A stretch of DNA of 64,000 bases from Patescibacteria group bacterium (lineage in GTDB: Bacteria > Patescibacteriota > Microgenomatia > PFEM01 > JAHIFH01), in contig DATKWU010000009.1 in the NCBI GenBank assembly GCA_035529375.1, positions 289,111-353,110 on the forward strand, in the 5' to 3' direction. Below are positions 18,327 through 44,173 of this stretch, in pieces. The notes beneath the pieces were generated by a model that searched no databases, was not told where the DNA came from, and saw only the letters and a list, made by a program, of their open reading frames with translations. The position numbers and the translations under genes were made by a program. Every line of letters starts with the position of its first letter. Positions within the stretch are counted from its first letter, which is position 1.

Positions 18327-18333
18327 ATTAGGA

Positions 18334-21932: not shown

Positions 21933-21947
21933 TTAAATAATAGCAGA

Positions 21948-25885: not shown

Positions 25886-28192
25886 ATGGCTGGAGAGGAA
25901 ACATATATTCCAAAACCTAAAGGTCTGGAGGAGATGACTGGAGGTAGTTTACCAGAAGGAAGAGACGAGGAAATTAGGAGAATGGTTGAAGAAAGACCAA
26001 TTAGCGGTGGTCAGGATGTGCCTGAGGATGAAGGCAAGGTTGATATTAGTGAATTAGTTAAAGCCCAGGTAGAAGCGGCGGTCGCTAGTGTGAGAACGGA
26101 ATTATCAGACCAAATTTCTGGTTTACAAACCAAACTTCAAGTGAGTGAAGCCCAAAAAGAGGCTTTAGAAAAGAGAATGGAAGGTTTAGAGGGTATCGAG
26201 GGGCTAAAAAGACCACTTAATAAAATTCTTAAGGCAATAGAGAGAACGGCTGTGGGAGCAGAAAGAACTGCGGCTAGTGGACAGGCTTCGTCTGAAAGAC
26301 TTTTAATCCCCGAATCAGAAAGGCCCAAAACAAAAGAAGGCTGGGCTGATTTGGCAAGAGAAGAATTAACAGTTTTAAGAGATCGAGGTGAATCCCCTTA
26401 TTCTCCTTTTCTATGGGGAGAGAGACCTGAAGTTAAAAGAGTTCTTGAGAGTATTCCTAAAAAAGATTGGGAAGGTATTTCAGCTAAAGAATGGGAAAAA
26501 TTACAAAAAGAATTAGAAAAAGAGATTTGGGTGATTCAAAAAGAAGACGGTTTAGCAACCCAGTGGTCTCAAAGGTCTAGTAATTTAAAAGCGTTAGGAG
26601 AATTAACTGACCTTATTTCGGCCACGGGAGTAGCCTTAGATCCCGAAAAACTAAATGCCTTATCTAGTCTTGCTCCAGCCAAGACACCCGAGTATCTAAA
26701 AGAAGAAGGAAAAGAAATTATTCCTGAGGGAGAAAGTATGTCTATCCAGGTTAGTAGAGCCCTTCACATTTACGCTAAATATTTTGGTGTTTGGGCTGAG
26801 GAGATAGCTAATGAGATGGATAAACCAGGGGGAATAGAAGATAGACTAAGAACAAGGTGGCTAAAAGGTGACTTTAGCAAGGATAAAAAGAAATGGGGGA
26901 AAGCGGTTGATGACGAGATAGATGCGTTTGATTATCGAAATAATTCTAAACTAAGTAAAGCGGGTAAAGAAGTTTTAGAGAGATTAGGATTCGGTAGTGA
27001 CGGAAAAATTCCTTATAAAACTTTACAAGAAATTTTTAAAGAGATGCCTGATGAGGCTAGTAAGGAAAGGAAATATCAAGATTTGAAGAAGCAGATTGAT
27101 GATGCTGTTAAAGCTAAAGATACAGGTGGTCTTTCTCTGGCTGAACTTTTCGATAGAAATATATTTTGTCAAAATATTAATGTAAGTGAATCAAGATATA
27201 CTCAGTGGTTAGTGGCAATGCTCGCTGGTAGTGAATATGCTGGTGAGTCGGCTATGAGATTTTTAAGATATACCGGTGAATCAGGGGAGATGAATACAAC
27301 TCATGTTCCAGGCGCTTGGGTGAGTGATGGTTTTACTCGTATTCCTTGGATAGAAAGAAGAAGGTTGTCAGAAGCGAGGAAGAGGCGAGTCCGTGGCCCT
27401 AATATAACTTTAGGCAGGTATAAATTTCCTATTGAAAGAGAGGGAAAAGAAAGAGGTCTATGCCACAGTTGGGTAAGAGAAGCAGAAGTTAAAATTGGAG
27501 ATAAAAAGATGAAAATAATTGAGCTTTTAAGAGGCGATAATCGTTGGTTTCATGAGATTCCTTGGGACCAATTGGGTCAAGAGACTTATATTAGTAATTT
27601 TACTTTGGCTGTCACTCACGGTGTGAATATTTTTGGATTACTTACCAATCCTAATATTGAATTAACTGGAAGAGAGGGATTACTTAGTCAAGCAGAAGAA
27701 TTAAAAAAATTAAATAAATCGATGCAATATTCATTTAAAGACTGGGAAAGTGGGGAAATCGCTCTCAAAAAAGAAGACGGGACACCAATAGATGGTGATG
27801 GTGGTTGGGAGAAGAGAGAGAATTGGGCTCAATATTGGTTAGAAAAAGTTAAGTCTATAAAAGGATTGTCTGCGTTTGGGAAAAGTCTATGGAGTCCTTG
27901 GTTTACTTTTTACCTTGGGGCAATTTATGAACATCATCCGAATCGAAATCTTCCCCAAAGGGAAATTCATTCCCCCACCGGAATCTATAGGAAGAGAAAA
28001 ATTCCCCATTCTCGAAGATGGAATGAAGAAAGAGAGACGGCTGAGGGAGGGCGTATCTATAGGGAAAATTCGGTTGCCGATTTTATCGGTGAGGGAGTAG
28101 AGCAAGAAGTTTTAACTCCAGGGGAAGCAGAACTTCTTATAGCTGTTTGCCAGATATCTAAAGTAAAAAAAGCCGATATTTTGGGTCTTTAA
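25886..28192 (+). CDS. Hypothetical 768-aa soluble protein encoded on the opposite strand inside the T4SS-like locus
   Basis: No TM segments; charged and coiled-coil N-terminal third. I recognise no ATPase or relaxase motifs. Confidence 0.5.
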   Translation: MAGEETYIPKPKGLEEMTGGSLPEGRDEEIRRMVEERPISGGQDVPEDEGKVDISELVKAQVEAAVASVRTELSDQISGLQTKLQVSEAQKEALEKRMEGLEGIEGLKRPLNKILKAIERTAVGAERTAASGQASSERLLIPESERPKTKEGWADLAREELTVLRDRGESPYSPFLWGERPEVKRVLESIPKKDWEGISAKEWEKLQKELEKEIWVIQKEDGLATQWSQRSSNLKALGELTDLISATGVALDPEKLNALSSLAPAKTPEYLKEEGKEIIPEGESMSIQVSRALHIYAKYFGVWAEEIANEMDKPGGIEDRLRTRWLKGDFSKDKKKWGKAVDDEIDAFDYRNNSKLSKAGKEVLERLGFGSDGKIPYKTLQEIFKEMPDEASKERKYQDLKKQIDDAVKAKDTGGLSLAELFDRNIFCQNINVSESRYTQWLVAMLAGSEYAGESAMRFLRYTGESGEMNTTHVPGAWVSDGFTRIPWIERRRLSEARKRRVRGPNITLGRYKFPIEREGKERGLCHSWVREAEVKIGDKKMKIIELLRGDNRWFHEIPWDQLGQETYISNFTLAVTHGVNIFGLLTNPNIELTGREGLLSQAEELKKLNKSMQYSFKDWESGEIALKKEDGTPIDGDGGWEKRENWAQYWLEKVKSIKGLSAFGKSLWSPWFTFYLGAIYEHHPNRNLPQREIHSPTGIYRKRKIPHSRRWNEERETAEGGRIYRENSVADFIGEGVEQEVLTPGEAELLIAVCQISKVKKADILGL

Positions 28193-28370: not shown

Positions 28371-29909
28371 TTAACCTGAGACTTTTTTACTAAGTACTTC
28401 AATAACGCTCGAAATGCCCGTTTCTAAGCTTTTTGGTTTCTCGCCGCTTCCCCTTCCCTCCTTTCCCCATGTGATTCTTTCTGCTATTTTTGGACCAGCA
28501 CCCATCATCGCCATACCTGCTACTCCCCTTATTGGACCAACTGCTTCGCCAATAGCTGCTCCATATTCAAACGGCTTACCGGCAAGAAAAGCTTTAATTA
28601 TATCTGTGACTTTTGGGGTGAGGGCAAGAATGCCAATACTAATAAAGAGCATAATGATGGTCGATATAACATTAGCTGAACCCAAATTCCGAAATGCTGC
28701 AACAAGATCCTCTAAAAAAGTAGAACTGGTATTACCTTCGATACTGCTTACAACTAAGCTTCCTAAATTAGATTTTCTAAAAAGCGGAGCAATAGCCAAA
28801 TAACCAGAGAGAAAAATCATTGCTATCGTGGCTGGCAGAACAACTAAGTTGGCAATGAGATTTCTAAACCAGCTGGAAATAGCGTTACTTCCTGGCAGAA
28901 TACCAACTAATATTTCGAAGGGAGCAAAAATTAAATGAAGGACAACCATAACATAGGCCTTTAAGAGTGCCCATAAGATACGGATGTAGATAATAAGAAA
29001 AATGATAGCCAAAAGAAAAAGAATTGTTACGTTTAAGCCTATTATCATAGGAGATATAGGCCATAAGATAATGCTAGTAATTATGGTAGGGGTAGAAGTG
29101 ATAATGGTAAAGGTTAGAAAAGTAGCAAAGGCAGGCCCGAGTAAGATTATGAAGATACCAGCAGCCAAATGACTAGCATCAGTAACAGCTTGAGCAGTAA
29201 TTAGTCGAGAGAGCCATTGAGGAAAATTCGGGTCTGTATCAGGGATGTGTTTGAAAGTAAAAATAATCAGATTTGTAAAGACCCACATAAAATCAATCAT
29301 GAGGCCAACGATTGCGTAAGAGAAGGTTATTAAAATAAGGCCAATGACTACTTTTGGAAGAGCTGATTGAATGGTGATTACAGTTTGAGGATTGATTTTA
29401 ACCCGGAACATAATAGCAAACCCCATAAAGACAAGGATGAGAACAAAGAAAACATAGGTAATATTTCGAAAGGTTTTCCAGAGAGGGAGATAGTCAGCCA
29501 TTCGTTCGAATCCAGTATCTTCTTGGGCGTAGGTTGGTTTGACAACTCTCAGTTTTTCACCGATGCTTGCTAAATATTGAATCCCAGAAGCAGGCGGGGT
29601 AGCGTAAATATAGGCGATAAAACTGCCGATAGTTCTAATCATTCCTGTTTGGTTTTGGTTTTGTTCTCCCTGGTTCAAGACAACACCGAAAATAAAATGA
29701 ACGATCGAGCCAAAGATTGCTTTGATTGTTTCGTAAACAAAACTTTGGAGGTTCATTTCTTCTGAATTGATAGCGCTTTCAAATTGAAATTGGTAAGTAC
29801 TTTCAGGTGTGGAAAATGCTTGAATCGGGCCAGATAAGATAAAGGAGAATAGAAAGAAGAAAAGGAGAGTTAGAGTAATTTTTTTCTTGGTAAATAATTT
29901 GGTTAACAT
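28371..29909 (-). CDS. VirB6/TrbL-like polytopic membrane protein (candidate T4SS channel subunit)
   Basis: Signal/TM N-terminus, then at least 8 TM helices with large loops and a hydrophilic C-terminal tail. This architecture resembles VirB6/PrgH-like proteins. Confidence 0.4.
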   Translation of the reverse strand: MLTKLFTKKKITLTLLFFFLFSFILSGPIQAFSTPESTYQFQFESAINSEEMNLQSFVYETIKAIFGSIVHFIFGVVLNQGEQNQNQTGMIRTIGSFIAYIYATPPASGIQYLASIGEKLRVVKPTYAQEDTGFERMADYLPLWKTFRNITYVFFVLILVFMGFAIMFRVKINPQTVITIQSALPKVVIGLILITFSYAIVGLMIDFMWVFTNLIIFTFKHIPDTDPNFPQWLSRLITAQAVTDASHLAAGIFIILLGPAFATFLTFTIITSTPTIITSIILWPISPMIIGLNVTILFLLAIIFLIIYIRILWALLKAYVMVVLHLIFAPFEILVGILPGSNAISSWFRNLIANLVVLPATIAMIFLSGYLAIAPLFRKSNLGSLVVSSIEGNTSSTFLEDLVAAFRNLGSANVISTIIMLFISIGILALTPKVTDIIKAFLAGKPFEYGAAIGEAVGPIRGVAGMAMMGAGPKIAERITWGKEGRGSGEKPKSLETGISSVIEVLSKKVSG

Positions 29910-29956: not shown

Positions 29957-32941
29957 TTATTGAACAATTGTTCCCCATAGCCATTGCAAAAGGTTTTTAC
30001 CTTCGTCTTTGGGTACAAGTGATTTAGTTACCCATTCTTTGGCTAATTGAACACCACCAAGGTAGTTGTAATAGAATCTGCCTTCTGAGGGAGTAATATC
30101 TTCTGGGCTTTGGCTGTCTTTGTAATAGAACTGAATTTCACTGGCCGCATCCATTTCTCGGAATTCCGGCCAGGTGGCTGGGCGGAAAATATTAAAGAGA
30201 CCATTGGTGTCTAATTTACCGGTTTGTTCCCAGATCTGGGTTAGGTAAGGATGAAGGAGACGGGTGCCAAAATCCCTTTTAACCGATCTCTCAATAATCT
30301 CCTTGCAGGGATCTTTACATTTCTCGCACTCGTTAGGATCTTTTGATTTAGGGTCGAGTACGCAACCAGGAATTGGTTTACAATCGAGACCTTCTTGACG
30401 GCACTTTTCGTATTCAGGATTTTCCCAAGCATCAACAGCTACCAGAGGAATATTGATTTTGCATTCTTCATCACAACAAAGCTTGTCATTATCATTAGGG
30501 TCTGTAATCGCTGGCAATTCACAGTTAGATACTTGAACAAGAGGACCAGAAACACCACAAGTTGCTGGCGGTTCATAAGGTTCGCCTTTGCAAGAACCTG
30601 TTCCGTTCTCATCAAGAGTCATACAACAACCTTCACTAACTCCAACGTGTCCAGTGGAAGTTCCAATATTATAGTTGATGGCACTGACATTAATGCAAGC
30701 TGTTCCGCCAGGTCCAGGAGAACCTATGTGGTATTCTAGACCCGGACCGAGATTGTTTATTCCCATGAATTGGCCGTTGATTTCCACCCAGACATGACCA
30801 TCACCAGAGGCATCAATAATGATTGTACAGCCTCCTCCTGAACAAGTGATAGACCTAATATTAATACTTGAACATTGGTCGCCGTCAGGATCACAGCCAC
30901 TAGCTTGAGCTAGAAGTTTTTTCTCTCCTGGTGAAGCGATAATAAGGCTTGTTTGATTTTGGGCATACATTAAACTGCTATCCCATTGCGTTAAAAGCAT
31001 GTTATTTAGTTCCTGAGTGGCTTCATTCAGGCGAGCAACATGAGGAACATCTTCTACCTGCGGTTCAATATTTTTGGGAATATCATCAGATTTATAGCCG
31101 TAATAGGGCATAATCCAGCCAATGGTATCATCACGACTGATCAAGGGAGCGACCACCCAGAGATTGGACCATTTACCGTTTTCTGCTTCTTTCCATTCTT
31201 GATATTTTATTTCGTAATTTTCCTCTTCAGGGTCTGGAGGAAGATGATCAGCCAGACTCGTTAAAGTGCTGGTAGCTCCAGTTTCGTCCCAATGAGAAAT
31301 TTTAATAGGGGAACTATCAAGAATAGTCTTAACTCCAGCAATCAAAGCATCATCCAAGGGATTTAAAGTTTTATCACTAAAGAGACAGTAGTTAGAAAAT
31401 TCTTCAGCCTTTTTAACGACAATATTACTACCTGTTAGTTTTCCTGCTATTGTGATAAGGGCTTCCGCCCAAAAAGGCGCGTCCCAACAAAGGCGGCCAA
31501 TATAATTAAGGTTGTAATCGTGAACGCCACCTTCGTGGATATTTTTTTCTATAGTTTCTTTTGCTCTCTTGACCATGTTTTTCTTCAGCTCGTCTTGGTA
31601 GGCCATAGGGGTTAATTTGCGAAGAACACCAGCGTGGTTAACCCAATCTAGCCAGTATTGCCCATAGTTCTGGTAGTATTCATTGGTTCCTTCGAAGTAG
31701 TCAGCCAAATATTTTTGTTCGTAATCGGATTTATCATCAACGCCCTCGCCTTTATAACCAACAAAAGGGATAGTGGTATCTGAAGGATCGATAGTGACGA
31801 TTCCCCCCCATTTTCTACTGACACAATGAGGCGGTTCTTCAGTGCCGTCACCCCGTTCATAAGTAACGGTATCGTGAACTGTAAAACTCGTGGCGCATGA
31901 AGGACAGTAATTGTGGGTATCGTCACAAGAATCGCAAGGAACCGGTCGGGAATCATAATCGCCGCCGTCGGAGGGGTTACAGGTGGGTGGCGGGGCGACA
32001 ACGACATAAGGTGATGGGGTAGGGATGGGAAAGGGAATAAATTCAAAATCAGGAATAATTCCTTCAAGCAAGGCCGCATAAAGTTGAAAATAGAAAAATG
32101 CCAATTTGGGATTACCAAAAATATCTACTAAGCCAAAACCCGGTCCGCCGAAGTCCGAAAAGGTATACCAAAGAACGGTCGCCACCTCATTACCGAATTC
32201 TCGGGCAACTAATTCATAAACGGCTTTAAGATAATCAGCCTGGAGTTGTTGATCAGCTACTTCCCAGCCAAATTCAGTTATCCAGAGAGGTTTACCCTCT
32301 GAGACCGCTAAAAAATTTAAAAGAGTTTGTCTAACTAGATTGATGTCAAGAGTGTAGGGGTGAACCCCAACCCCATCAGCCGGCAAGCCACCAGCAATTT
32401 CAATTACTTTTATTAGATAATTTGGGTCGCCAGCCACCATTCCTCCGGTGACAACAAAACTATTTGAATTTTCATTTATAGCGTTATAGGCAGCTGCCAA
32501 AAGGGCGGCATAATTTCCAGGGGGAATATAAATTGAGGCAACATTATTTTGAGCGTCTTGCTCATTCCAGATTTCATAAGCGGCTACCCTATCCCCGAAG
32601 CGAGCTGCGGTCTCAGCTGCCATGTTGGCAAAATTATTTACATAATTAGAATTAATTTCTAAGTTTGGCGGCCAAAGTGTTTGCTGGTTTAGAACCATAA
32701 CAACATCGATTCCCGCCTGATTAAGTTCATTTATATAGGAATCGTAGTTGAAACCAGAATCGGGCACATAAACAAATCTTACCCAACTAGCCCCCAGAGC
32801 TTGAAGGTCGCTGGCACTTGGTCTTGATTGGGGATTAATAGGACCAATATTAATCCCCGCGCCCCCTGCTTGAGCAGAAACTTTTTGGGGAGAAACAAGG
32901 AAAAAGAAAAGTAGTAATATTCCTAGGCAGATTTTTTTCAT
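29957..32941 (-). CDS. Secreted 994-aa protein: N-terminal clan GH-A (GH5-like TIM-barrel) glycoside hydrolase domain plus Cys-rich C-terminal modules
   Basis: Signal peptide MKKICLGILLLFFFLVSPQKVSAQA. Catalytic-acid-like motif YEIWNEQD and nucleophile-like LWITEFGWE. Downstream clusters of paired Cys (CDSCDDTHNYCPSC, CCDEECK, CEKCKDPCK). Confidence 0.6.
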   Translation of the reverse strand: MKKICLGILLLFFFLVSPQKVSAQAGGAGINIGPINPQSRPSASDLQALGASWVRFVYVPDSGFNYDSYINELNQAGIDVVMVLNQQTLWPPNLEINSNYVNNFANMAAETAARFGDRVAAYEIWNEQDAQNNVASIYIPPGNYAALLAAAYNAINENSNSFVVTGGMVAGDPNYLIKVIEIAGGLPADGVGVHPYTLDINLVRQTLLNFLAVSEGKPLWITEFGWEVADQQLQADYLKAVYELVAREFGNEVATVLWYTFSDFGGPGFGLVDIFGNPKLAFFYFQLYAALLEGIIPDFEFIPFPIPTPSPYVVVAPPPTCNPSDGGDYDSRPVPCDSCDDTHNYCPSCATSFTVHDTVTYERGDGTEEPPHCVSRKWGGIVTIDPSDTTIPFVGYKGEGVDDKSDYEQKYLADYFEGTNEYYQNYGQYWLDWVNHAGVLRKLTPMAYQDELKKNMVKRAKETIEKNIHEGGVHDYNLNYIGRLCWDAPFWAEALITIAGKLTGSNIVVKKAEEFSNYCLFSDKTLNPLDDALIAGVKTILDSSPIKISHWDETGATSTLTSLADHLPPDPEEENYEIKYQEWKEAENGKWSNLWVVAPLISRDDTIGWIMPYYGYKSDDIPKNIEPQVEDVPHVARLNEATQELNNMLLTQWDSSLMYAQNQTSLIIASPGEKKLLAQASGCDPDGDQCSSINIRSITCSGGGCTIIIDASGDGHVWVEINGQFMGINNLGPGLEYHIGSPGPGGTACINVSAINYNIGTSTGHVGVSEGCCMTLDENGTGSCKGEPYEPPATCGVSGPLVQVSNCELPAITDPNDNDKLCCDEECKINIPLVAVDAWENPEYEKCRQEGLDCKPIPGCVLDPKSKDPNECEKCKDPCKEIIERSVKRDFGTRLLHPYLTQIWEQTGKLDTNGLFNIFRPATWPEFREMDAASEIQFYYKDSQSPEDITPSEGRFYYNYLGGVQLAKEWVTKSLVPKDEGKNLLQWLWGTIVQ

Positions 32942-33246
32942 TATTCAAACTTAAACTCAAGCAATCCTTCGATGCCAGTAAAGTCAGCAATGAATTTAAG
33001 AATGAACCAAGCAATGATAATCAAGACTAGACCAAGAATGGCATAGGTAATTGTGTTCCTTGCTGATTCAACTGCCTTAGGATCACCACCAGAAGTCAAC
33101 CATTTGAAGCCACCAAGAATAATCATGATGAAAGTAGCAATTCCGGCTAAACGAATAGCCAAATTTAGAAGATTCCACATGATTTGAATTAGGTCTGAAA
33201 TTCGAGCTGGATCTTCCATTAAACTAACTTTACAACACCAAAACAC
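32941..33246 (-). CDS. VirB2/TrbC-like pilin-type small membrane protein (paralog 1 of 8)
   Basis: TM1 (GIATFIMIILGGFKWL), loop TSGGDPKAVESARN, TM2 (ILGLVLIIIAWFILKFI). Shares a family motif with the other seven paralogs. Confidence 0.5.
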   Translation of the reverse strand: MFWCCKVSLMEDPARISDLIQIMWNLLNLAIRLAGIATFIMIILGGFKWLTSGGDPKAVESARNTITYAILGLVLIIIAWFILKFIADFTGIEGLLEFKFE

Positions 33247-33319
33247 CTACCGTCAAGGGTAGGTGTCGGTACGCACTTTAATTATTTAAACCGCTTCTAT
33301 ATAAGGATTAGATTCTTTA

Positions 33320-33697
33320 TTATTTAATCGTTGGAATTGCTAGTCCGGTGAGAATATGAATTCCAAAGAATGTCTCCAATAATCTAATGATGGCCCAGGA
33401 GGCAAAAACAATTGCTAGACCAATTAGAGCGGCCGTGAGCGTGCTTTGAGCATTGGCCGTTCCTTCTTTGTCACCACCAGAGGTAATCCATTTAATCCCA
33501 CCAATGATGAGAAAGAAAAAGGAAATCAGAGCTGCCACTACCAAGAGCAATTTAATAGCAGCAGAAATTATACCCGGAATAGTAATAGTGCCTAAAGCCC
33601 CAAAGTCTTCACCTGTAGGTAAGATGCTAATGGTATCACTAGCCGCCAAAGCAGGAGCAATCATTAAGTAATTTGTCAATTCTTTAATTTTCTTCAT
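33320..33697 (-). CDS. VirB2/TrbC-like pilin-type small membrane protein (paralog 2)
   Basis: Signal peptide MKKIKELTNYLMIAPALAAS, then TM1 and the loop WITSGGDKEGTANAQSTLTAALIGLA, then TM2. Confidence 0.5.
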   Translation of the reverse strand: MKKIKELTNYLMIAPALAASDTISILPTGEDFGALGTITIPGIISAAIKLLLVVAALISFFFLIIGGIKWITSGGDKEGTANAQSTLTAALIGLAIVFASWAIIRLLETFFGIHILTGLAIPTIK

Positions 33698-33716
33698 TTT
33701 TTCACCCCCTTTCCTT

Positions 33717-34115
33717 TTATTTGATTAGATAAGGCGAAATATCAAAAAAGAGATTCTCGAGCGCCTCAATCCCAAAGAAACTCCCAATTAATTTGATTAT
33801 AGCAAAGACAGCAAAAAGAGCAATTAGACCAACAATCGCACTGACGACTTTACCTCGGGCTGACTCTAGAGCCGCCTTGTCGCCGCCAGCGGTCATCCAT
33901 TGAATCGCCCCAACCACCAGAAAAATGAAAGCAACGATAACCCCGACGATAAGAAGAATGGCGATAATATTACCCAGGAAAAGGTTAATAATATCAAGGC
34001 CTTCACCAGTACCAACCAGAGGATTAAGAGCAGGATTGTAAATACCTTCTTGGTATTCGCCTGCGCCTCCTCCTTCACCTGGTGTCGCAGCAGCTAAATA
34101 GATTTTTTCTATCAT
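33717..34115 (-). CDS. VirB2/TrbC-like pilin-type small membrane protein (paralog 3)
   Basis: WMTAGGDKAALESARGKVVSAIVGLI between two TM helices. N-terminus MIEKIYLAA is shared with paralog 4. Confidence 0.5.
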   Translation of the reverse strand: MIEKIYLAAATPGEGGGAGEYQEGIYNPALNPLVGTGEGLDIINLFLGNIIAILLIVGVIVAFIFLVVGAIQWMTAGGDKAALESARGKVVSAIVGLIALFAVFAIIKLIGSFFGIEALENLFFDISPYLIK

Positions 34116-34117
34116 TT

Positions 34118-34507
34118 TTAGGGCCCTAGTTGTTCAATAATTTCTTGAGGATTAAGAATGTCAAATCCTAAAAAATTGCCGATAAGAGAAATAAGAGCAT
34201 AGGCGAGAACAATAACAATCAGGCCAGTCAAGCCATTACTGATTCTTTTAGTAGCCCCTTCAACTGCTTTAGAATCACCACCAGCCGTTAAATAGCCAAA
34301 AGCGCCGATAACAAGAATGAAGAAGAACCAAATACCGGCAATAACGGTCATAATGCCGATGATTTTTGAAAGGATTGAAGTGAAGTGTCTGGCGGCAACA
34401 CCAACATTACTGAATCGGTAGAGAGCTCCCCAGGGACCGAAACCTTCACTGGGGTCTCCGCCAATGGGACCAAGATCAACTTCAGCGGCAAAGATTTTTT
34501 CTATCAT
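34118..34507 (-). CDS. VirB2/TrbC-like pilin-type small membrane protein (paralog 4)
   Basis: YLTAGGDSKAVEGATKRISNGLTGLI between two TM helices. N-terminus MIEKIFAA. Confidence 0.5.
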   Translation of the reverse strand: MIEKIFAAEVDLGPIGGDPSEGFGPWGALYRFSNVGVAARHFTSILSKIIGIMTVIAGIWFFFILVIGAFGYLTAGGDSKAVEGATKRISNGLTGLIVIVLAYALISLIGNFLGFDILNPQEIIEQLGP

Positions 34508-34510
34508 TTT

Positions 34511-34864
34511 TTAAGGCCCGTAAATTTTCGGATTAAGAATGGCGCTGGCATTGCCAAATAACAAATAACCAAAAATGGCAGCTAGAACAAAAGAGCCCAG
34601 AATAAACAAAAGCCCCATCAGTGATTGCCAGATTCTCGCCCAAGCTGCCCCCATTTTTTTAGGATCATCACCCGCACTTAAAAAACCATAGCCGGCAATG
34701 ATTAAGTTAAAAAAAGCAAAAAGACCGCCGACAACAATTAAAAGACGGATAATATTATTCAAAAACTTGATCATCCCAAAATTTGGCCCAGGCTCGCCAG
34801 CATAGCCAGTAATCCCCATTTTGGTAAAAGGATTTTCAATGGCTCCAAAAATTTCGAAAATCAT
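34511..34864 (-). CDS. VirB2/TrbC-like pilin-type small membrane protein (paralog 5)
   Basis: FLSAGDDPKKMGAAWARIWQSLMGLL between two TM helices. Confidence 0.5.
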   Translation of the reverse strand: MIFEIFGAIENPFTKMGITGYAGEPGPNFGMIKFLNNIIRLLIVVGGLFAFFNLIIAGYGFLSAGDDPKKMGAAWARIWQSLMGLLFILGSFVLAAIFGYLLFGNASAILNPKIYGP

Positions 34865-35229
34865 ATGCCTAAACCCCCACTAAGAAAATCAATACCGGTA
34901 ATAACTTTAATAATTTGTATTATCCAATAACTGGCAAAAATAATCAAGAAACCAATTAGAGCGGCGGTCACCGCCTGGGTTCCTTTAGCCGCTCCCTCAG
35001 GATTTTCCTGGCCAGCGCTGATAAGGAACATCAACCCACCACCAATCAGAAGAAAGAAGAGAATAATACCAGCTAAAACATAGATGTTGGGTAGAAGATT
35101 GGAGATAATGCCCCCCAAAGTCATACTCGTACTCAAACCTGAGTGTTCGCCAAAAAGGGCTTTGCCAATTTCGAAATTCTGCATCACATTTAGTCTATCA
35201 ATATCAAATTTAAGTGTCAACTTTTGCAA
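34861..35229 (-). CDS. VirB2/TrbC-like pilin-type small membrane protein (paralog 6, divergent loop)
   Basis: FLISAGQENPEGAAKGTQAVTAALIGFL between two TM helices. 4-nt overlap with paralog 5. Confidence 0.45.
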   Translation of the reverse strand: MQKLTLKFDIDRLNVMQNFEIGKALFGEHSGLSTSMTLGGIISNLLPNIYVLAGIILFFLLIGGGLMFLISAGQENPEGAAKGTQAVTAALIGFLIIFASYWIIQIIKVITGIDFLSGGLGI

Positions 35230-36328: not shown

Positions 36329-37120
36329 GTGGTAGAATCCAGTCCGATGCCGAAAAAAACTTCTAAGACCAAAATAGATAAAAAAAATCTTCCCAGACAT
36401 ATTGGCATTATTATGGATGGTAACCGACGTTGGGCTGCAAAAAGAGATTTGACACCAATGGAAGGCCACCAAGCCGGAGTCAAAGCCCTAATCAAAATTG
36501 TGGATTATTGTTTGGATCTGAAGATAGAAACCTTAACGATTTATGCTCTCTCAACCGAAAATTGGCGGAAAAGAGCCAAGAAAGAAGTGGAAGGACTTTT
36601 TAACTTGTTGGTCAGAGCCGTGGAAGAGAAAAAAGAAGAGTACAAAGAAAAAGGCGTCAAGTTAGTGGTTTTAGGCAATTTTCAGGCTTTTCCTAGGAAA
36701 GTCGTTCGGGCGATTGAAGAGATGTTAGCCATTGTTAAAACTCATGAGAGATTAAAGGTCAATGTCGCTTTAAATTATGGCGGTCGAGACGAAATTATTA
36801 GGGCCATCAAGAAAATTGTTGAAGATGAAGTTCCGCCCAAAAAGATTAATGAAAAAATGTTTGGTAAATTCCTTTACACTAATGGCGAACCAGACCCCGA
36901 CTTAATTATTCGGACTGGCGGCGAATCAAGGCTTTCTAATTTTCTTCTCTGGCAATCTAGCTATTCCGAGCTTTATTTTACTAAAACTCTTTGGCCAGAC
37001 TTTTCTCCAGCCAAGCTCGACAAAACAATTCTTGCTTATCAAAAGCGGACCAGAAGATTTGGTGGGGGTACGTTTGCTATCTACAGGAAGAAAGCTAAAA
37101 AATCTTCAAGCCAAAAATAA
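36329..37120 (+). CDS. uppS: Undecaprenyl-diphosphate synthase (cis-prenyltransferase)
   Basis: HIGIIMDGNRRWA and RTGGESRLSNFLLWQSSYSELYF are UppS hallmarks. Confidence 0.9.
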   Translation: MVESSPMPKKTSKTKIDKKNLPRHIGIIMDGNRRWAAKRDLTPMEGHQAGVKALIKIVDYCLDLKIETLTIYALSTENWRKRAKKEVEGLFNLLVRAVEEKKEEYKEKGVKLVVLGNFQAFPRKVVRAIEEMLAIVKTHERLKVNVALNYGGRDEIIRAIKKIVEDEVPPKKINEKMFGKFLYTNGEPDPDLIIRTGGESRLSNFLLWQSSYSELYFTKTLWPDFSPAKLDKTILAYQKRTRRFGGGTFAIYRKKAKKSSSQK

Positions 37121-37415
37121 CTTCCAAAATTTGAATCAGCCAATAGGCAACAAAAATAATAACAAAGCCGATGACAGCGCCCGTGAGTCTTCCTTTAGCT
37201 GACTCCATTTTCTTTGGGTCACCAGCCGAAGTCATCATTTCAAAGCCAGCCCAAATCAGGATTAAAAGCAAAGCCAAACCAGCCAAAGCAAAAATATAGG
37301 GGATCAGGTCATTGATAATATTGCTAATATTCCCACTGGCAAATGCAAAGCTAGGTGGATCATTAATTGATTCGCCGCCAGGAAAAGTTAAAGCTAATTT
37401 TTTCATTTTATTCAA
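37095..37415 (-). CDS. VirB2/TrbC-like pilin-type small membrane protein (paralog 7)
   Basis: MMTSAGDPKKMESAKGRLTGAVIGFV between two TM helices. Confidence 0.5.
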   Translation of the reverse strand: MNKMKKLALTFPGGESINDPPSFAFASGNISNIINDLIPYIFALAGLALLLILIWAGFEMMTSAGDPKKMESAKGRLTGAVIGFVIIFVAYWLIQILEVIFGLKIF

Positions 37416-37761
37416 ATCCTGGGATAGCTAATATTTCCACTCCAATAATTCTTAAAATAAAAACAGCAAAAACAATTAGTAAGAGACCAGAGATCGCCGA
37501 AGTGATGAGCTCTTTACCTGATTGGACTTTTTCCGGATTACCTCCAGAAGTTAAGACCTGAAGCCCTCCAAAGATAATTAAGAGAGTAGCAATCCCACCG
37601 CCAATACCAATGGCGAAAGCTAGAATTCTACTAACGAAAGCTTGGGGACTTTCAACATTAATTGGCCCAATGGCGGTATTAATAATTGCTTCAGCTAGGG
37701 TTGGACTGGCGAGAATAAAAATTAAAGCAAACAATAAGACGGTCACAGCTAGTTTTTTCAT
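37408..37761 (-). CDS. VirB2/TrbC-like pilin-type small membrane protein (paralog 8)
   Basis: Clear signal peptide MKKLAVTVLLFALIFILASPTLAEA. The mature part is TM1 - VLTSGGNPEKVQSGKELITSAISGLL - TM2, a two-TM pilin-like topology. Confidence 0.5.
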   Translation of the reverse strand: MKKLAVTVLLFALIFILASPTLAEAIINTAIGPINVESPQAFVSRILAFAIGIGGGIATLLIIFGGLQVLTSGGNPEKVQSGKELITSAISGLLLIVFAVFILRIIGVEILAIPGFE

Positions 37762-37837: not shown

Positions 37838-39541
37838 ATGAAAAAGGTAAAAGTTTTGATCAGTCTCTTAATGGCTTCTTCAATTTTAATTTTTCTTTTT
37901 TCTCATTCTTTTATTGTTCAGGCTGCTTGTCCGGAAAGTGATTATGATTGTCAATTTGAGGAAATTCAAAAAATCATTGATGCTCTCGCCCCAGCCCACG
38001 AACAAAACAAAACCGAATTAGCCAAACTTAAAACTCAATTAGCCGATCTTCAGAAAAGGCTTGATGCCATTACCTTGGGTTTGAAACAGCTTGAGAAGAG
38101 TATTCTTGAGAGGGAGGTTGATTTGGCTTTTCAGGAAAAAATTTTAGCGGCTAAGGTAAGAAGTTATTATATTCAAAGCCAAAAATCTTCTCCCTTTCTC
38201 TTGTTTTTGTCTTCGAATAATGCTCAAGAACTGGCTCGAGAATTAGCTTTCCGGCTTAAAGTTGTTAATCAAGACAGATTGACGATTGTTCAAATTTCGG
38301 CTGATTTGAAGAAACTTCAAGAGGATAAGATTACTTATGAGCGAAGTCAAGCGAGTTTAGCCCAAGCCCAAAAACAGGTTGATGATCGGGCCACTTTTTT
38401 AGAAGGAGAAGTCGAGAAGGTTGAGTCAGCCATTGCCTCTTTGACCGCTAAGCAACAACAAATATTAGCCCAAAAATTAGCCAGTTTAAATCTTCCCACC
38501 ACCTTAGGTGCTGGGCCTTTGGTTTGTGTTGATGATCGAGATCGAGATCCTGGTTTTCGTCCCGCTTTTGCTTTTTTTACTTACGGGATTCCTCATCGAG
38601 TGGGGATGAATCAATACGGAGCTTACGGTCGGGCCAAGGCCGGTCAATCATACCAAGAGATTCTTAAAATTTATTACGAAGGGATTACGATTGAAAAGAA
38701 ACCCAACGTTAGTCTCCAAGTTCAAGGTTATGGAGCGATGCCTTTAGAACAGTATTTATTAGGGATTTACGAGATGCCTGAAAGTTGGCCAATCGAAGCC
38801 CAAAAAGCTCAAGCGGTGGCGGCCCGGTCTTATGCCTTGGCCTATACTGACAATGGGTCTAAAGAAATTTGCACCAGTCAACAATGCCAAGTTTATAAGG
38901 GAGGCAATAAAGGCGGTAATTGGGAAGCAGCGGTCAAAGCAACAGAAGGCGAAGTTGCCGTTCATAGCGGTCAGGTGATTACTGCTTGGTATGCTTCAAC
39001 CGCTGGTGGTTACACTTTTTTTTCTTCTGATGTCGGTTGGAGTCAGCGGCCTTGGACCAAAAGATTACGAGACACCAGTGGTGAAGTCAGTAGTTTTGCT
39101 GATCTTCAGGGTAAAGCCTATGATAAAGACTCACCTTGTTTTTATGCGGCTCAAGGTTGGCGGAAAGAGTATGCTAGTTCTGCCTGGTTAAAATCTGAAG
39201 AAGTGACTGATATTATCAATGTTCTGCTTTTAGCTAAAGCTGATCCTTCAAGTCAACAACACCTGGCCCAGGTGGATAAACCTAATCCTGATGGAGTGGA
39301 TACTTGGGATGCTGGTCGAGTTAAACAAGAATTAAAGAGTCGAGGGATTACCCCTTTTGATAATGTCTCTAGTGTTTCTGTCGGTTGGGACAATGGTCTG
39401 GGAAGAACAACCTCTGTCAGTGTTTCTGGCAGTGCTGGTAATCAAACTTTTGATGGTCCGGAGTTCAAAAACTTTTTTAATCTTCGAGCGCCGGCTAATA
39501 TCCAGATTGTTGGGCCGTTGTTTAATGTTGAGAAAAAGTAG
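37838..39541 (+). CDS. Secreted SpoIID/LytB-domain protein with an N-terminal coiled-coil (putative peptidoglycan lytic enzyme / amidase enhancer)
   Basis: Signal peptide. Coiled-coil (LADLQKRLDAITLGLKQLEKSILEREVDL). SpoIID/LytB motifs GMNQYGAYGRAKAGQSYQEILKIYY, AQKAQAVAARSYALAY...CTSQQCQVYKGG and WYASTAGGYT. Confidence 0.75.
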   Translation: MKKVKVLISLLMASSILIFLFSHSFIVQAACPESDYDCQFEEIQKIIDALAPAHEQNKTELAKLKTQLADLQKRLDAITLGLKQLEKSILEREVDLAFQEKILAAKVRSYYIQSQKSSPFLLFLSSNNAQELARELAFRLKVVNQDRLTIVQISADLKKLQEDKITYERSQASLAQAQKQVDDRATFLEGEVEKVESAIASLTAKQQQILAQKLASLNLPTTLGAGPLVCVDDRDRDPGFRPAFAFFTYGIPHRVGMNQYGAYGRAKAGQSYQEILKIYYEGITIEKKPNVSLQVQGYGAMPLEQYLLGIYEMPESWPIEAQKAQAVAARSYALAYTDNGSKEICTSQQCQVYKGGNKGGNWEAAVKATEGEVAVHSGQVITAWYASTAGGYTFFSSDVGWSQRPWTKRLRDTSGEVSSFADLQGKAYDKDSPCFYAAQGWRKEYASSAWLKSEEVTDIINVLLLAKADPSSQQHLAQVDKPNPDGVDTWDAGRVKQELKSRGITPFDNVSSVSVGWDNGLGRTTSVSVSGSAGNQTFDGPEFKNFFNLRAPANIQIVGPLFNVEKK

Positions 39542-42432: not shown

Positions 42433-42876
42433 GTGAAAGTTATTAACCGTCGAGCTCGCTATGATTACTATCTTTTAGAGAAGTTTGAAGCAGGCATTGC
42501 CTTAACTGGCTCAGAGGTCAAATCAGTTAAGGCAAGCAAACTAAGCCTTAACGAAGGCTTTGTTAAGATAATTGGAGGCGAGGCTTGGTTACTTAATGCC
42601 TATATCAACCCTTATCCTTATGCCGATAATCGAGATTATGATTCCAAGCGTAACCGGAAGCTGCTTTTACATAAAAACGAGCTCCTAAAATTAAGCCAGC
42701 AAACTAAGGAAAAGAATTTGACGATTGTACCTGTTTCGTGCTATACTAAGGGTCGAAAAATCAAACTAGAGATTGCCTTAGCTAGAGGGAAAAAGAAGTA
42801 TGATAAAAGAGAAACAAAGAAACGCAAGGCAATTGAAAGAGAAATTGAACAGACATTAAAAGATAAGGGGATGTAA
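42433..42876 (+). CDS. smpB: SsrA-binding protein SmpB
   Basis: VINRRARYDYYLLEKFEAGIALTGSEVKSVK... is an SmpB signature. GTG start. Directly upstream of the tmRNA. Confidence 0.9.
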   Translation: MKVINRRARYDYYLLEKFEAGIALTGSEVKSVKASKLSLNEGFVKIIGGEAWLLNAYINPYPYADNRDYDSKRNRKLLLHKNELLKLSQQTKEKNLTIVPVSCYTKGRKIKLEIALARGKKKYDKRETKKRKAIEREIEQTLKDKGM

Positions 42877-43236
42877 GTCTCGACGGGAAGGGTTCTTTAA
42901 AAACAGCAAGCCGACCTGAAATAAGCCGTTAAAAGGTTTCAAAAAAAATATAACTGGCAACCCAAAAGTTGCTAATTATGCTTATGCTTACGCTTAAAAG
43001 CGCTTGGGCATAAGCCATTCATAGTTTTTTCTCCTGGTGAGAAACTATGGGTGACAACCCAGCCAGGATACAATTCAATTGGTTTGGCTAGACTGATTGA
43101 GCCAAGTTTAATTAGCCTTGGTTTTAACTTTCCGGTTGACAGGATCAGGTTAAGACGACAATTAAGAGTCAACTAAGCTTGTAGAAGTTTTTAGAAATTC
43201 TTTTCGGACGCCGGTTCACTCCGGCCATCTCCACCA
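42867..43236 (+). ncRNA. ssrA: tmRNA (ssrA), ~370 nt, not in the ORF track
   Basis: 5' end GGGGATGTAAGTCTCGACGGGAAGG (compare E. coli GGGGCUGAUUCUGGAUUCGACGGGAU). 3' tRNA-like end GGACGCCGGTTCACTCCGGCCATCTCCACCA. The 7-bp acceptor pairing GGGGATG/CATCTCC is preserved. Internal tag ORF GGC AAC CCA AAA GTT GCT AAT TAT GCT TAT GCT TAC GCT TAA (42956-42997) encodes GNPKVANYAYAYA*. Confidence 0.75.
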
Positions 43237-43277
43237 GATCATCTTTAATTCTTAATAGACTTAAGAAATAGAAACTA

Positions 43278-43447
43278 ATGAAAGAGGGGGGTCCCACCGC
43301 TGCCGAAATCATCGCAATTTATGACGAAGTCCGTGGTTACTTCCGGACTCCTCAGGCAATTAAAGGTATCTCTCCTGAGAAAGAAGAAAAACTTCCTACT
43401 AAACAAACTCCTGAACAAGTCCAAGATAAAACTTCTCCTAAGAAATA
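43278..43447 (+). CDS. Possible small ORF (56 aa) between tmRNA and comF
   Basis: My translation gives MKEGGPTAAEIIAIYDEVRGYFRTPQAIKGISPEKEEKLPTKQTPEQVQDKTSPKK. No homology evidence. It is below the ORF-track length cutoff. Confidence 0.2.
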
Positions 43448-43468
43448 AACCCTGTTAAAATTAGTTTA

Positions 43469-44137: not shown

Positions 44138-44173
44138 AAAAAGGCTAGTTTTTTGCTAAAATAGGAACCATTA

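What the first reader, a model, noticed from the sequence alone, without database searches (positions are those of the whole stretch)
29957..32941. 994-aa secreted protein combining a clan GH-A glycosidase domain with Cys-rich modules inside the T4SS locus
A signal peptide is followed by a TIM-barrel glycoside hydrolase signature (…YEIWNEQD… acid/base and …LWITEFGWE… nucleophile). About 650 aa then follow with repeated Cys pairs (CDSCDDTHNYCPSC, CCDEECK, CEKCKDPCK). A large extracellular polysaccharide-degrading or adhesin-like protein sits between the VirB6-like gene and the pilin array. It could act on host surface glycans or the organism's own envelope.
Basis: partly seen in the sequence, partly recalled or inferred. 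Interest (0 to 1): 0.6.

Follow-up and report, generated by a model that had tools for sequence, protein, structure and literature searches.

The report
Glycosidase-headed protein in T4SS pilin operon
This gene from an ultra-small (Patescibacteria) bacterium encodes a secreted protein whose conserved, previously undescribed body is nearly always encoded right after the pilin genes of the cell's type IV secretion system, and whose swappable front end is here an intact sugar-chain-cutting enzyme, which makes it a good candidate for how these bacteria get their secretion pilus through a polysaccharide barrier.

Summary
The 994-aa ORF (29957-32941, minus strand) has a Sec signal peptide, a ~276-aa clan GH-A barrel and ~675 Cys-rich residues, and lies between a six-gene VirB2-like pilin array and a 10-segment polytopic protein.

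The GH domain is well supported. N126/E127, H194/Y196 and E223 are invariant in 17 homologous domains. The best solved relative by sequence profile (E 4.9e-27) and by predicted fold (TM 0.74) is PslG, a GH39 retaining endo-beta-glucosidase.

The emphasis needs correcting. The "Cys-rich modules" are not repeats. They form a conserved two-part core (aa 321-680 and 791-980, ten conserved Cys) around an optional beta-sandwich-like insert, with no Pfam, NCBIfam, PDB or viral-structure relative. This core is the constant, T4SS-linked element (about 350 representatives). In 23 of 24 loci examined it directly follows the pilin array, usually translationally coupled.

The GH domain is a swappable head. 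A relative with 96.7% identical pilin and 79% identical core carries an unrelated head, with sharp DNA breakpoints.

Most likely the core is a T4SS/pilus-associated extracellular protein that here presents a glycan depolymerase. Neither the target (host or own envelope) nor the core's biochemical role is resolved.

The parts
32870..32941 (-). Signal peptide (aa 1-24; likely cleavage after VSA, aa 23). The start codon overlaps the stop codon of the upstream pilin gene (TAATG).
   Evidence: Only hydrophobic segment in the protein. Junction sequence read directly. An MKK... N-terminus is conserved in homologs.
32042..32869 (-). N-terminal head: compact PslG-like clan GH-A (beta/alpha)8 glycoside hydrolase domain (aa 25-300), Cys-free.
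   Evidence: AF2 model with pLDDT 88.2, pTM 0.88 and 8 beta/alpha units. Foldseek top PDB hit is PslG 4zn2_A, E 7.9e-13, TM 0.74, and all other top hits are clan GH-A. Profile against PDB sequences: PslG E 4.9e-27. On the query itself Pfam PF11790 is just below threshold.
32561..32566 (-). Codons for N126-E127 (WNE motif directly after beta-4), the predicted general acid/base.
   Evidence: Invariant in 17/17 domains. E127 aligns with PslG Glu165. Position relative to strand E97-100 of the model. Coordinates checked.
32354..32362 (-). Codons for H194-P195-Y196 (beta-6 HxY motif of clan GH-A).
   Evidence: H and Y are invariant. Coordinates checked.
32273..32275 (-). Codon for E223 (ITEFG, end of beta-7), the predicted catalytic nucleophile.
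   Evidence: Invariant. Aligns with PslG Glu276. Lies at the end of strand E195-200 of the model.
31982..32041 (-). Pro-rich linker (aa 301-320, FIPFPIPTPSPYVVVAPPPT, 40% Pro). This is the 3' boundary of the exchangeable head cassette.
   Evidence: Composition. DNA similarity to L025 resumes at window 31969.
30902..31981 (-). Core module A (aa 321-680): long beta-hairpin plus helical/mixed domain. Conserved Cys at 321, 336, 339, 349, 485 and 519. Highly conserved Glu/Tyr-rich stretch KYLADYFEGTNEYY (aa ~410-423) and a second conserved motif, VPHxARLxE in the family consensus, with H634, R637 and E640.
   Evidence: BLAST domain map; alignment A2; AF2 model with pLDDT mostly 80-96. No Pfam, NCBIfam, PHROG, PDB or BFVD relative.
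30572..30901 (-). Variable insert (aa 681-790): Gly-rich (20%), all-beta, probably an Ig/FN3/CBM-like sandwich. Absent from the ~570-630-aa 'minimal' family members.
   Evidence: Column occupancy 0.33-0.56. Strands E373-456 of the model. The only weak Foldseek hits are FN3- and CBM31-like sandwiches; assigning those hits to this segment is an inference.
30002..30571 (-). Core module B (aa 791-980): alpha/beta domain. Conserved Cys at 807, 822, 847 and 879. Conserved H897, W904, N917, R920, Q965 and K968.
32941..35229 (-). Context: array of six VirB2-like pilin genes directly upstream on the same strand. Each product has two hydrophobic helices.
   Evidence: Pfam PF18895; hydropathy; a six-pilin run is conserved across loci.
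28371..29909 (-). Context: downstream co-directional gene, 47 nt away, with no terminator predicted in the gap. The 512-aa product has about 10 hydrophobic segments. It is VirB6-like by topology and position only and has no Pfam hit.
   Evidence: It is conserved immediately downstream of the family gene in most loci where the contig continues.

Best explanation
The gene encodes a Sec-exported, disulfide-stabilised extracellular accessory protein of the Microgenomatia-type Patescibacteria type IV secretion/pilus system.

The family-defining part is the C-terminal core (modules A and B). It is co-transcribed, and usually translationally coupled, with the last gene of a six-pilin array, and it precedes the polytopic VirB6-like gene. 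I infer that it works at or with the T4SS pilus or channel outside the membrane.

An exchangeable N-terminal 'head' sits on this core behind a Pro-rich linker. In this genome the head is a compact, catalytically intact, PslG-like clan GH-A retaining beta-glycosidase. The most likely job of the fusion is to hold a polysaccharide depolymerase at the T4SS/pilus. There it would locally cut an envelope or extracellular polysaccharide that blocks the pilus. That role is functionally comparable to VirB1-type 'hole-punchers', and architecturally comparable to phage tailspike depolymerases (conserved anchor plus variable enzymatic head). I favour a foreign (host-cell) glycan as the target over the bacterium's own, but only weakly.

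Shown: the architecture, catalytic-residue conservation, fold, synteny and coupling, and cassette exchange. Inferred: enzymatic activity, physical association with the T4SS, the disulfides, and the target.
For: Architecture and secretion.

GH domain: invariant N126/E127, H194, Y196 and E223. They sit at beta-4, beta-6 and beta-7 of a confident 8-fold beta/alpha model. PslG is the best match by sequence profile (E 4.9e-27, full domain; E127 and E223 align with PslG Glu165 and Glu276) and by fold.

Core as the T4SS-linked unit: all 23 loci in which the core was detected by probe search have pilin genes immediately upstream on the same strand, typically a run of six. The polytopic gene follows, then PrgI-like, TraC-like, VirB4-like and M23 genes. 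This holds for head-less members (P0018, P0076) and for a member with a different Cellulase-type head (P0073). The family gene starts -4 to +9 nt from the last pilin stop in 15 of 21 loci, and in the window the two overlap as TAATG.

Head is a cassette: against L025, DNA identity is 92.6% through the pilin and signal-peptide codons, absent across the GH-coding region, and 77-81% in the core. The pilin proteins are 96.7% identical and the cores 79%. Head and core identities are discordant across the family.

Envelope-acting context for this GH subfamily: elsewhere it is fused to GH25 lysozyme in a phage-like region, to Amidase_2, and in about 100 mostly Chloroflexi proteins to SH3b and/or M23.

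Extracellular and disulfide-rich: 10 Cys are at least 90% conserved.

Literature: the Patescibacteria T4SS and its pilins are essential for epibiotic growth, and glycan-binding or glycan-degrading envelope proteins are proposed to target host glycans (PMC10633639). No adhesin or clear VirB1 equivalent has been found in many classes (PMC12102498).
Against: There is no direct evidence that the protein binds the pilus or the T4SS; gene order is the only link.

One divergent GH+core member (P0058) lies among glycolysis, DsbD and glutaredoxin genes with no T4SS genes nearby. The GH+core unit can therefore exist away from the locus.

The query's own Pfam GH scores are just below threshold (17.8 and 20.5 bits against a cutoff of 21). 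No CAZy/dbCAN assignment was possible, and the substrate is unknown.

About 35 family members have no head, so the glycosidase is not needed for the core's function.

The genome has its own Wzx/Wzy-type polysaccharide cluster about 15-20 kb away. PslG-type enzymes classically act on the producer's own exopolysaccharide, so a self target is quite possible.

Confidence: 0.5

Rival explanations
1. Self-directed envelope remodelling (a VirB1 or PslG analogue). The GH head trims the bacterium's own surface polysaccharide or wall glycan so that the T4SS pilus can be assembled through its own envelope.
For: PslG and similar GHs normally process the producer's own exopolysaccharide (PMC11912335). A Wzx/Wzy/epimerase polysaccharide cluster lies at 7.5-14.8 kb in the window. 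The T4SS locus already groups wall-remodelling enzymes (M23 at 19404-21932, SpoIID at 37838-39541). The survey paper notes that other glycosidases might replace VirB1 in Patescibacteria. GH+SH3b+M23 relatives look like autolysins.
Against: Near-identical strains (pilin 96.7%, core 79%) carry unrelated heads, and many members have none. That is unexpected for a housekeeping assembly factor, unless the strains' own surface glycans also differ, which could not be checked. The enzyme is tethered to a large conserved extracellular body and is not a small periplasmic-type lysin.
Confidence: 0.25
2. Nutrient scavenging. A secreted polysaccharide-degrading enzyme feeds a fermentative, auxotrophic cell, and its place in the T4SS locus is incidental.
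For: Pfam relatives include Cellulase/GH5, GH39 and GH128-type families. P0058 sits among glycolysis genes. Patescibacteria depend on external carbon (established knowledge).
Against: The conserved partner is the core, which is tied to the pilin array in 23 of 24 loci and usually translationally coupled. Head-less members keep the same position. The GH subfamily's other architectures are wall-hydrolase-like (SH3b, M23, GH25, amidase), not CBM-rich cellulolytic ones. No sugar transporter or catabolic genes are adjacent in the window.
Confidence: 0.1
3. Adhesin or lectin role. The barrel serves mainly to bind a glycan receptor (host recognition) with little or no turnover, and the core is the pilus-tip adhesin scaffold (a VirB5 or PrgB analogue).
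For: Position next to the pilins and before the VirB6-like gene recalls virB5-virB6. The heads are variable, and some members have Ig-like or CarboxypepD_reg/Big_1 domains instead. About half of the dominant alternative head group appears to have lost the N-E pair. No PrgB-type adhesin is known in Patescibacteria.
Against: In this protein and all 16 aligned relatives every catalytic residue is retained, which argues for catalysis. The core shows no similarity to any solved adhesin or VirB5.
Confidence: 0.12
4. The core itself is an uncharacterised enzyme or assembly factor (for example a pilin-processing or pilus-polymerisation chaperone), and the heads are secondary decorations.
For: Many invariant or nearly invariant polar residues in the core (E408, D414, E417, E421, R441, K442, H634, R637, E640, D819, H897, N917, R920). 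Head-less members exist. Strict coupling to the pilin array.
Against: There is no recognisable catalytic motif or fold relative. This rival concerns the core's role and is compatible with the main explanation.
Confidence: 0.2

Closest known systems
PslG of Pseudomonas aeruginosa (CAZy GH39; PDB 4zn2/5bx9), a retaining endo-beta-glucosidase acting on the Psl exopolysaccharide
   Same: Best match of the head by sequence profile (E 4.9e-27 over the whole domain) and by predicted fold (E 7.9e-13, TM 0.74). Same N-E acid/base after beta-4 and Glu nucleophile at the end of beta-7, aligned to PslG Glu165 and Glu276.
   Different: Only 22% identity. The head is shorter (about 276 aa) and lacks PslG's C-terminal beta-sandwich domain; a Pro linker and the unrelated core follow instead. 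It is not encoded in an exopolysaccharide synthesis operon. The query does not reach Pfam GH39 or any other GH Pfam threshold. Substrate unknown.
T4SS-associated cell-wall hydrolases (VirB1; PrgK of pCF10; TraG of pIP501)
   Same: A glycan- or wall-cutting enzyme encoded inside a T4SS locus, plausibly clearing a path for the apparatus (functional analogy; literature summarised in PMC12102498).
   Different: Those enzymes use SLT/lysozyme-like, CHAP or M23 folds acting on peptidoglycan. This is a clan GH-A barrel fused to a large novel core. The locus also has a separate M23 protein next to VirB4.
Phage tailspike and tail-fibre depolymerases (receptor-binding proteins)
   Same: The design logic: a conserved anchoring module plus an interchangeable glycan-degrading or glycan-binding head, swapped by recombination at a sharp boundary. 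The same GH subfamily occurs with GH25 in a phage-like region, and GH-A domains of this general type occur on viral contigs.
   Different: No sequence or fold similarity of the core to viral proteins. The polarity is reversed, with the variable head N-terminal. The protein is Sec-secreted and encoded in a T4SS operon. No trimeric beta-helix.
T4SS pilus-tip and surface adhesins (VirB5/TraC; PrgB)
   Same: A secreted protein encoded beside the pilin genes and before a VirB6-like gene. A possible role at the pilus-target interface.
   Different: No detectable sequence or structural similarity. The protein is about four times larger than VirB5, has no LPXTG anchor, and carries an enzymatic head.
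Chloroflexi/Anaerolineae GH + SH3b +/- M23 proteins (annotated 'cellulase family glycosylhydrolase', 'SH3 domain-containing protein' or 'M23 family metallopeptidase')
   Same: Closest large group of relatives of the GH head outside the family (25-32% identity, bit scores 240-317 against the profile). They have the same catalytic motifs and an envelope-hydrolase domain context.
   Different: They lack the core and are not shown to be T4SS-linked. Their function is also untested.

Membership tests
Clan GH-A glycoside hydrolases (4/7 superfamily) | (beta/alpha)8 barrel fold | tested here: met
   AF2 model with pLDDT 88.2 and eight alternating strand-helix units. There are 563 Foldseek PDB hits at E<=0.001, and the top 50 are all GH-A families (GH39, GH1, GH5, GH2, GH10, GH53, GH30).
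Clan GH-A glycoside hydrolases (4/7 superfamily) | Asn-Glu (general acid/base) at the C-terminal end of beta-4 | tested here: met
   N126-E127 are invariant in 17/17 domains and lie directly after model strand 97-100.
Clan GH-A glycoside hydrolases (4/7 superfamily) | Glu nucleophile at the C-terminal end of beta-7 | tested here: met
   E223 is invariant and lies at the end of model strand 195-200. It aligns with PslG Glu276.
Clan GH-A glycoside hydrolases (4/7 superfamily) | Retaining double-displacement hydrolysis of a beta-glycosidic bond | not testable with these tools
   Needs enzymology.
CAZy GH39 (PslG-like) | Significant match to the family's sequence model (dbCAN/CAZy, or Pfam PF01229) | tested here: not met
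   dbCAN is not available. The query has no PF01229 hit, and only 3 of 17 homologous domains hit PF01229.
CAZy GH39 (PslG-like) | Closest characterised or solved relative belongs to the family | tested here: met
   PslG is top by profile (E 4.9e-27), followed by GH39 xylosidases at 1e-14 to 1e-11. PslG is also top by Foldseek.
CAZy GH39 (PslG-like) | C-terminal beta-sandwich domain packed on the barrel, as I recall for PslG and the GH39 xylosidases (from memory, not checked here) | tested here: not met
   The barrel ends at about aa 295 and is followed by a Pro-rich linker.
GH128 / Pfam Glyco_hydro_cc (PF11790) | Score at or above the Pfam gathering threshold (21 bits) | tested here: not met
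   17.8 bits for the full protein and 20.5 bits for the domain alone. 16 of 17 homologous domains match at E<0.01, so the relationship is at clan level and family membership is unproven.
GH5 / Pfam Cellulase (PF00150) | Match to the family model | tested here: not met
   No hit for the query. 11 of 17 homologs match.
VirB1/PrgK-type T4SS peptidoglycan hydrolases | SLT/lysozyme-like, CHAP or M23 catalytic domain | tested here: not met
   No such Pfam domain in this protein. The M23 domain is on a separate protein (19404-21932).
VirB5 / PrgB-type T4SS adhesins | Sequence or fold similarity to solved members | tested here: not met
Unnamed Patescibacteria (Microgenomatia-type) 'pilin-array-linked core' family defined here | N-terminal signal peptide, then modules A and B with conserved Cys (321, 336, 339, 349, 485, 519, 807, 822, 847, 879) | tested here: met
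   Alignment A2 of 52 sequences. 352 representatives at E<=1e-3 in the 50%-identity clustered library.
Unnamed Patescibacteria (Microgenomatia-type) 'pilin-array-linked core' family defined here | Encoded immediately after a same-strand array of about six VirB2-like pilin genes and before a polytopic membrane protein | tested here: met
   The window and 23 of 24 related loci. The exception is L026.

The most novel reading that the evidence does not exclude
The conserved core is a previously unrecognised structural subunit of the Patescibacteria T4SS pilus, for example a tip or cap complex assembled with the six pilin paralogues. It would display interchangeable glycan-degrading or glycan-binding heads that determine which host envelopes the epibiont can penetrate. 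That would make it a bacterial T4SS counterpart of phage receptor-binding depolymerases, with host range re-programmed by cassette recombination between the conserved signal peptide and the core. The dominant, unannotated head type may itself be a very divergent GH-A barrel, in which case glycan cutting or binding would be the general theme of the family.
Probability: 0.25. Interest if true: 0.85.

Novelty: new variant of a known kind. Interest (0 to 1): 0.62.

Why it matters
The Patescibacteria T4SS and its unusual pilin array are essential for epibiotic growth in the one genetically tractable species. What the system does, and how it engages the host envelope, is unknown (PMC10633639, PMC12102498, PMC12857230). 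The published survey found no adhesin and often no VirB1 equivalent.

This work identifies a conserved secreted protein family that is not annotated by Pfam or NCBIfam and is not described in the published survey read here. The family is translationally coupled to the pilin array in Microgenomatia-type loci. It carries recombining heads, of which this window's is a catalytically intact PslG-like depolymerase.

That gives a concrete, testable candidate for the host-contact or barrier-clearing component of the system. It also gives a handle for predicting host or glycan specificity from metagenomes (head typing), and a compact exopolysaccharide-hydrolase scaffold of possible anti-biofilm interest.

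Tried and rejected
1. Direct Pfam and NCBIfam scans of the whole protein gave only sub-threshold GH hits. A GH57 hit in the core (E 0.16) was dismissed as noise.
2. PHROGs scans of the head and the core found nothing.
3. Sequence-profile search of the core against the PDB found nothing; the best hit was a ribosomal protein at E 1.8.
4. Foldseek of the core model against the PDB and the BFVD viral structures gave no hit at E<=0.001. Only generic FN3/CBM/Ig sandwiches appeared, which I attribute to the insert.
6. The single-sequence homolog search with the GH domain returned almost nothing because of the word-index limitation. The alignment-based search worked.
7. I tested whether the dominant alternative head is a diverged GH-A barrel. 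hhalign gave probability 24-31% and E 5e-4 to 8e-4, with the three motifs in register, but a PDB profile search was negative. I left this as a hint only.
8. The viral-contig scan for the core was negative.
9. Promoter- and terminator-like sites in 28-36 kb are not more frequent than in shuffled sequence, so I made no regulatory claim.
10. Misassembly or an artefactual fusion was rejected. The identical protein is on record from several sources, and 50%-identical homologs share the full architecture.
11. A lipoprotein or a C-terminal anchor was rejected. There is no lipobox, no second hydrophobic segment and no LPXTG.


Full report
OBSERVATION. The only strongly hydrophobic stretch is the N-terminus (MKKICLGILLLFFFLVSPQKVSA|QA), which is a Sec-type signal peptide. 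There is no second membrane segment, no lipobox and no LPXTG. The quoted motifs are present (YEIWNEQD with N126/E127; LWITEFGWE with E223). Of the 28 Cys, one is in the signal peptide, none is in the GH domain and 27 lie after aa 320. The identical protein is on record as a hypothetical protein of a 'Patescibacteria group bacterium' MAG, seen on three contigs from several sources, so the ORF is not an assembly artefact.

LOCUS. On the same strand, directly upstream, lie six PF18895 VirB2-like pilin genes (32941-35229). Two more pilin genes lie at 37095-37761, beyond an oppositely oriented polyprenyl synthase/UppS pair, and a SpoIID-domain gene follows. Downstream, 47 nt away with no terminator predicted in the gap, is a 512-aa protein with about 10 hydrophobic segments. 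It has no Pfam hit and is VirB6-like only by topology and position. Next come an oppositely oriented 768-aa protein with no Pfam hit, a PrgI/VirB3-like protein, a 310-aa protein whose counterparts in related loci are called TraC-like, a VirB4-like ATPase and an 842-aa M23 peptidase. dnaN and dnaA flank the locus. This matches the published observation that Patescibacteria T4SS loci tend to be origin-proximal (PMC12102498). The stop codon of the last pilin gene overlaps the start codon of this gene (TAATG).

THE N-TERMINAL DOMAIN IS A PslG-LIKE CLAN GH-A GLYCOSIDASE. On the query alone, Pfam gives only a sub-threshold Glyco_hydro_cc hit (17.8 bits for the whole protein, 20.5 for the domain, gathering score 21). 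Homology makes the case. In an alignment of 17 homologous domains (28-79% identity), N126, E127, H194, Y196 and E223 are invariant and W258 is nearly so. A profile of that alignment matches PslG (PDB 5bx9/4zn2) over the whole domain at E 4.9e-27. The next matches are an uncharacterised protein (5jvk, 2e-23), GH39 beta-xylosidases (1e-14 to 1e-11), and then GH128, GH10, GH5, GH1 and GH53 members. The AlphaFold model (pLDDT 88.2, pTM 0.88) has eight strand-helix units. WNE lies directly after beta-4, HPY after beta-6, TE at the end of beta-7 and the conserved Trp at the end of beta-8. Foldseek puts PslG first (E 7.9e-13, TM 0.74, 22% identity), and every other top hit is a clan GH-A barrel. PslG is a CAZy GH39 retaining endo-beta-glucosidase with acid/base Glu165 and nucleophile Glu276 (PMC11912335). 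In the HMMER alignment those two residues (chain positions 139 and 250, a consistent offset of 26) align with the query's E127 and E223. Clan GH-A membership therefore passes every testable criterion. Assignment to GH39 specifically is not established: there is no PF01229 hit, dbCAN was not available, and the barrel is not followed by the accessory beta-sandwich that I recall PslG and the GH39 xylosidases having (that recollection was not checked here).

THE CORE, NOT THE GLYCOSIDASE, IS THE T4SS-LINKED ELEMENT. I used the window's own proteins as phmmer probes on all fetched loci. Every locus in which the core was detected (21, plus L025 and L027) has same-strand pilin genes immediately upstream, typically a run of exactly six. 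Where the contig continues, the polytopic protein follows, then the PrgI-like, TraC-like, VirB4-like and M23 genes. This is true for head-less members (P0018, P0076), for the Shapirobacteria member P0051, and for P0073, whose head is a different Cellulase-type GH. In 15 of 21 loci the family gene starts between -4 and +9 nt from the stop of the last pilin gene. There is one exception. P0058 is a 1304-aa GH+core protein only 27-28% identical to the query. It lies among glycolysis, DsbD and glutaredoxin genes, with no T4SS genes within the fetched flanks. The 2025 survey of Patescibacteria T4SS does not describe this family. It reports no PrgB-like adhesins and suggests that other glycosidases might substitute for VirB1.

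THE HEAD IS AN EXCHANGEABLE CASSETTE. Of 159 family members whose module A start could be located, about 35 have only a signal peptide in front of it. Another 89 share a different head of 150-400 aa with no Pfam hit, and 7 carry this PslG-like GH. Two further small groups (4 and 2 members) each include a member with a Pfam Cellulase hit. The rest have small beta-sandwich-type or unique heads. The closest relative of the query's core, P0002, has the other head. At the DNA level the window and its contig (L025) are 92.6% identical through the last pilin gene and the signal-peptide codons (window 33250-32890). They share nothing across 32890-31969, which is the GH-coding region. From 31969 onward they are 77-81% identical. 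The pilin proteins are 96.7% identical and the cores 79%. Conversely, P0003-5 share a 73-78% identical GH head with the query, but their cores are only 40-52% identical, no closer than the cores of members without this GH head (48-63%). Head and core therefore have different histories, with breakpoints at the signal peptide and at the Pro-rich linker.

WHAT THE HEAD PROBABLY ACTS ON. Outside this family, the same GH subfamily appears C-terminal to a GH25 lysozyme in a phage-like region (Bro-N and HTH genes, many small ORFs). It also appears with Amidase_2. In about 100 mostly Chloroflexi/Anaerolineae proteins it is fused to SH3b wall-binding domains and/or M23 endopeptidases. The query profile already contained five sequences of that last type, so that search is biased towards them. 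These are envelope-hydrolase architectures and not cellulolytic ones. Together with the PslG relationship, they point to a bacterial envelope or exopolysaccharide substrate. Two observations favour a foreign target: the heads differ between near-identical strains, and they are dispensable for the core. Two observations keep a self target alive: the genome carries its own Wzx/Wzy polysaccharide cluster at 7.5-14.8 kb, and PslG-type enzymes usually act on the producer's own polymer. In Southlakia, Wang et al. found the T4SS and its pilins essential. They speculated that essential envelope proteins with glycan-binding or glycan-degrading domains target host glycans (PMC10633639).

MECHANISM PROPOSED. 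(i) Sec export and signal-peptide cleavage (inferred from sequence). (ii) Oxidative folding of a disulfide-rich core outside the membrane (inferred from the conserved Cys). (iii) Association of the core with the T4SS pilus or channel, in amounts tied to the last pilin through translational coupling (inferred from conserved gene order and overlap). (iv) Retaining hydrolysis of a beta-linked polysaccharide by the tethered head, using E127 and E223 (inferred from invariant residues, fold and the PslG alignment). (v) Local clearance of a glycan barrier so that the pilus or T4SS can reach or cross the target envelope (hypothesis). My confidence in the whole chain is about 0.5. The architecture, synteny and cassette behaviour are solid. 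The activity, the association and the target are not demonstrated.

COMPARISON AND NOVELTY. The head is a new member of a known kind (clan GH-A, nearest to GH39 PslG). The whole protein works, at most, like VirB1/PrgK hole-punchers or phage tailspike depolymerases, but it fails the membership tests for those families and for VirB5/PrgB adhesins. The core is an unannotated family with no detectable fold relative, and I did not find it described in the T4SS literature I could read. I rate the finding a new variant of a known kind: a T4SS accessory enzyme or adhesin built on a novel pilin-operon-linked scaffold with recombining heads.

Noticed in passing
L025:370-1320 (head of P0002) and 88 other family members: The dominant alternative head (150-400 aa, no Pfam hit) may be a very diverged GH-A barrel. 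hhalign against the GH profile gives probability 24-31% and E 5e-4 to 8e-4, with TWNEWN/IWNEQD, NVY/HPY and IISEAG/ITEFG in register. Some members have textbook 'PWNEPNH'. About half of the group has replaced N-E by S-G, which could mean loss of catalysis.
   Followed up: partly
L026:9001-12915 (P0058): A divergent GH+core paralogue (1304 aa) lies outside any T4SS locus, next to DsbD_TM and glutaredoxin genes and a glycolysis cluster. The adjacency to disulfide-handling genes is notable for such a Cys-rich secreted protein, but it may be chance.
   Followed up: partly
window 33219-33320 (minus strand; hairpin at 33267-33242): A 10-bp-stem hairpin followed by a T-rich run sits between the fifth and the last pilin gene. 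It could attenuate transcription, so that the last pilin, this gene and the polytopic gene form a lower-expressed sub-operon. Terminator-like sites in the region are not enriched over shuffles. The annotated GTG start of the last pilin is probably too far upstream, since the L025 homolog is 92 aa.
   Followed up: no
window 15619-18326: dnaA and dnaN lie immediately beside the T4SS locus, so the locus is origin-proximal. This is consistent with the published pattern for Patescibacteria.
   Followed up: yes
window 7522-14767: A surface-polysaccharide biosynthesis cluster: a 971-aa epimerase/DUF4012 fusion, a Wzx-type flippase, a Wzy_C/O-antigen-ligase-like protein and others. It is a possible source of a 'self' substrate for the GH head.
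   Followed up: partly
window 32941-35229 and loci L001-L027: The pilin run directly upstream of the family gene is exactly six genes in most loci. A second pair of pilin genes lies beyond a conserved oppositely oriented polyprenyl synthase/UppS pair and next to a SpoIID gene. Six divergent pilins are also reported for Southlakia, which suggests a fixed multi-pilin stoichiometry.
   Followed up: partly
window 25886-28192 (+) and 18334-19413 (-): Two further conserved T4SS-locus proteins (768 aa with no TM segments; 359 aa) have no Pfam hit. The 768-aa one is conserved in the same opposite-strand position in related loci (for example L027).
   Followed up: no
L006:13492-15078 and 18684-22735; L001:2507-2884, 9182-9559, 17021-17514 and 18097-18510: Related T4SS loci are peppered with small inserted genes: 23S_rRNA_IVP four-helix-bundle proteins, AbiEii, HEPN/MNT and HicA toxin-antitoxin modules, and a PDDEXK protein inside the pilin array. 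The locus seems to tolerate or attract selfish or defence cassettes.
   Followed up: no
L007:8001-10574 (P0083): An 857-aa protein with a GH25 muramidase domain and this GH-A subfamily at its C-terminus lies in a phage-like region (Bro-N and HTH regulators, many small ORFs). It is a possible two-activity lysin or depolymerase of a phage.
   Followed up: partly
window 42867-45748: A tmRNA gene (tag GNPKVANYAYAYA) is followed by a tight cluster of six tRNA genes (four Ser, two Arg).
   Followed up: no
window 49739-58000: A large serine recombinase (519 aa) lies at the edge of a lower-GC stretch (0.35-0.37). That stretch contains a 575-aa protein with a proteasome-subunit-like N-terminal domain plus DUF6941, and a 957-aa protein with no Pfam hit. 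It may be an integrated element.
   Followed up: no
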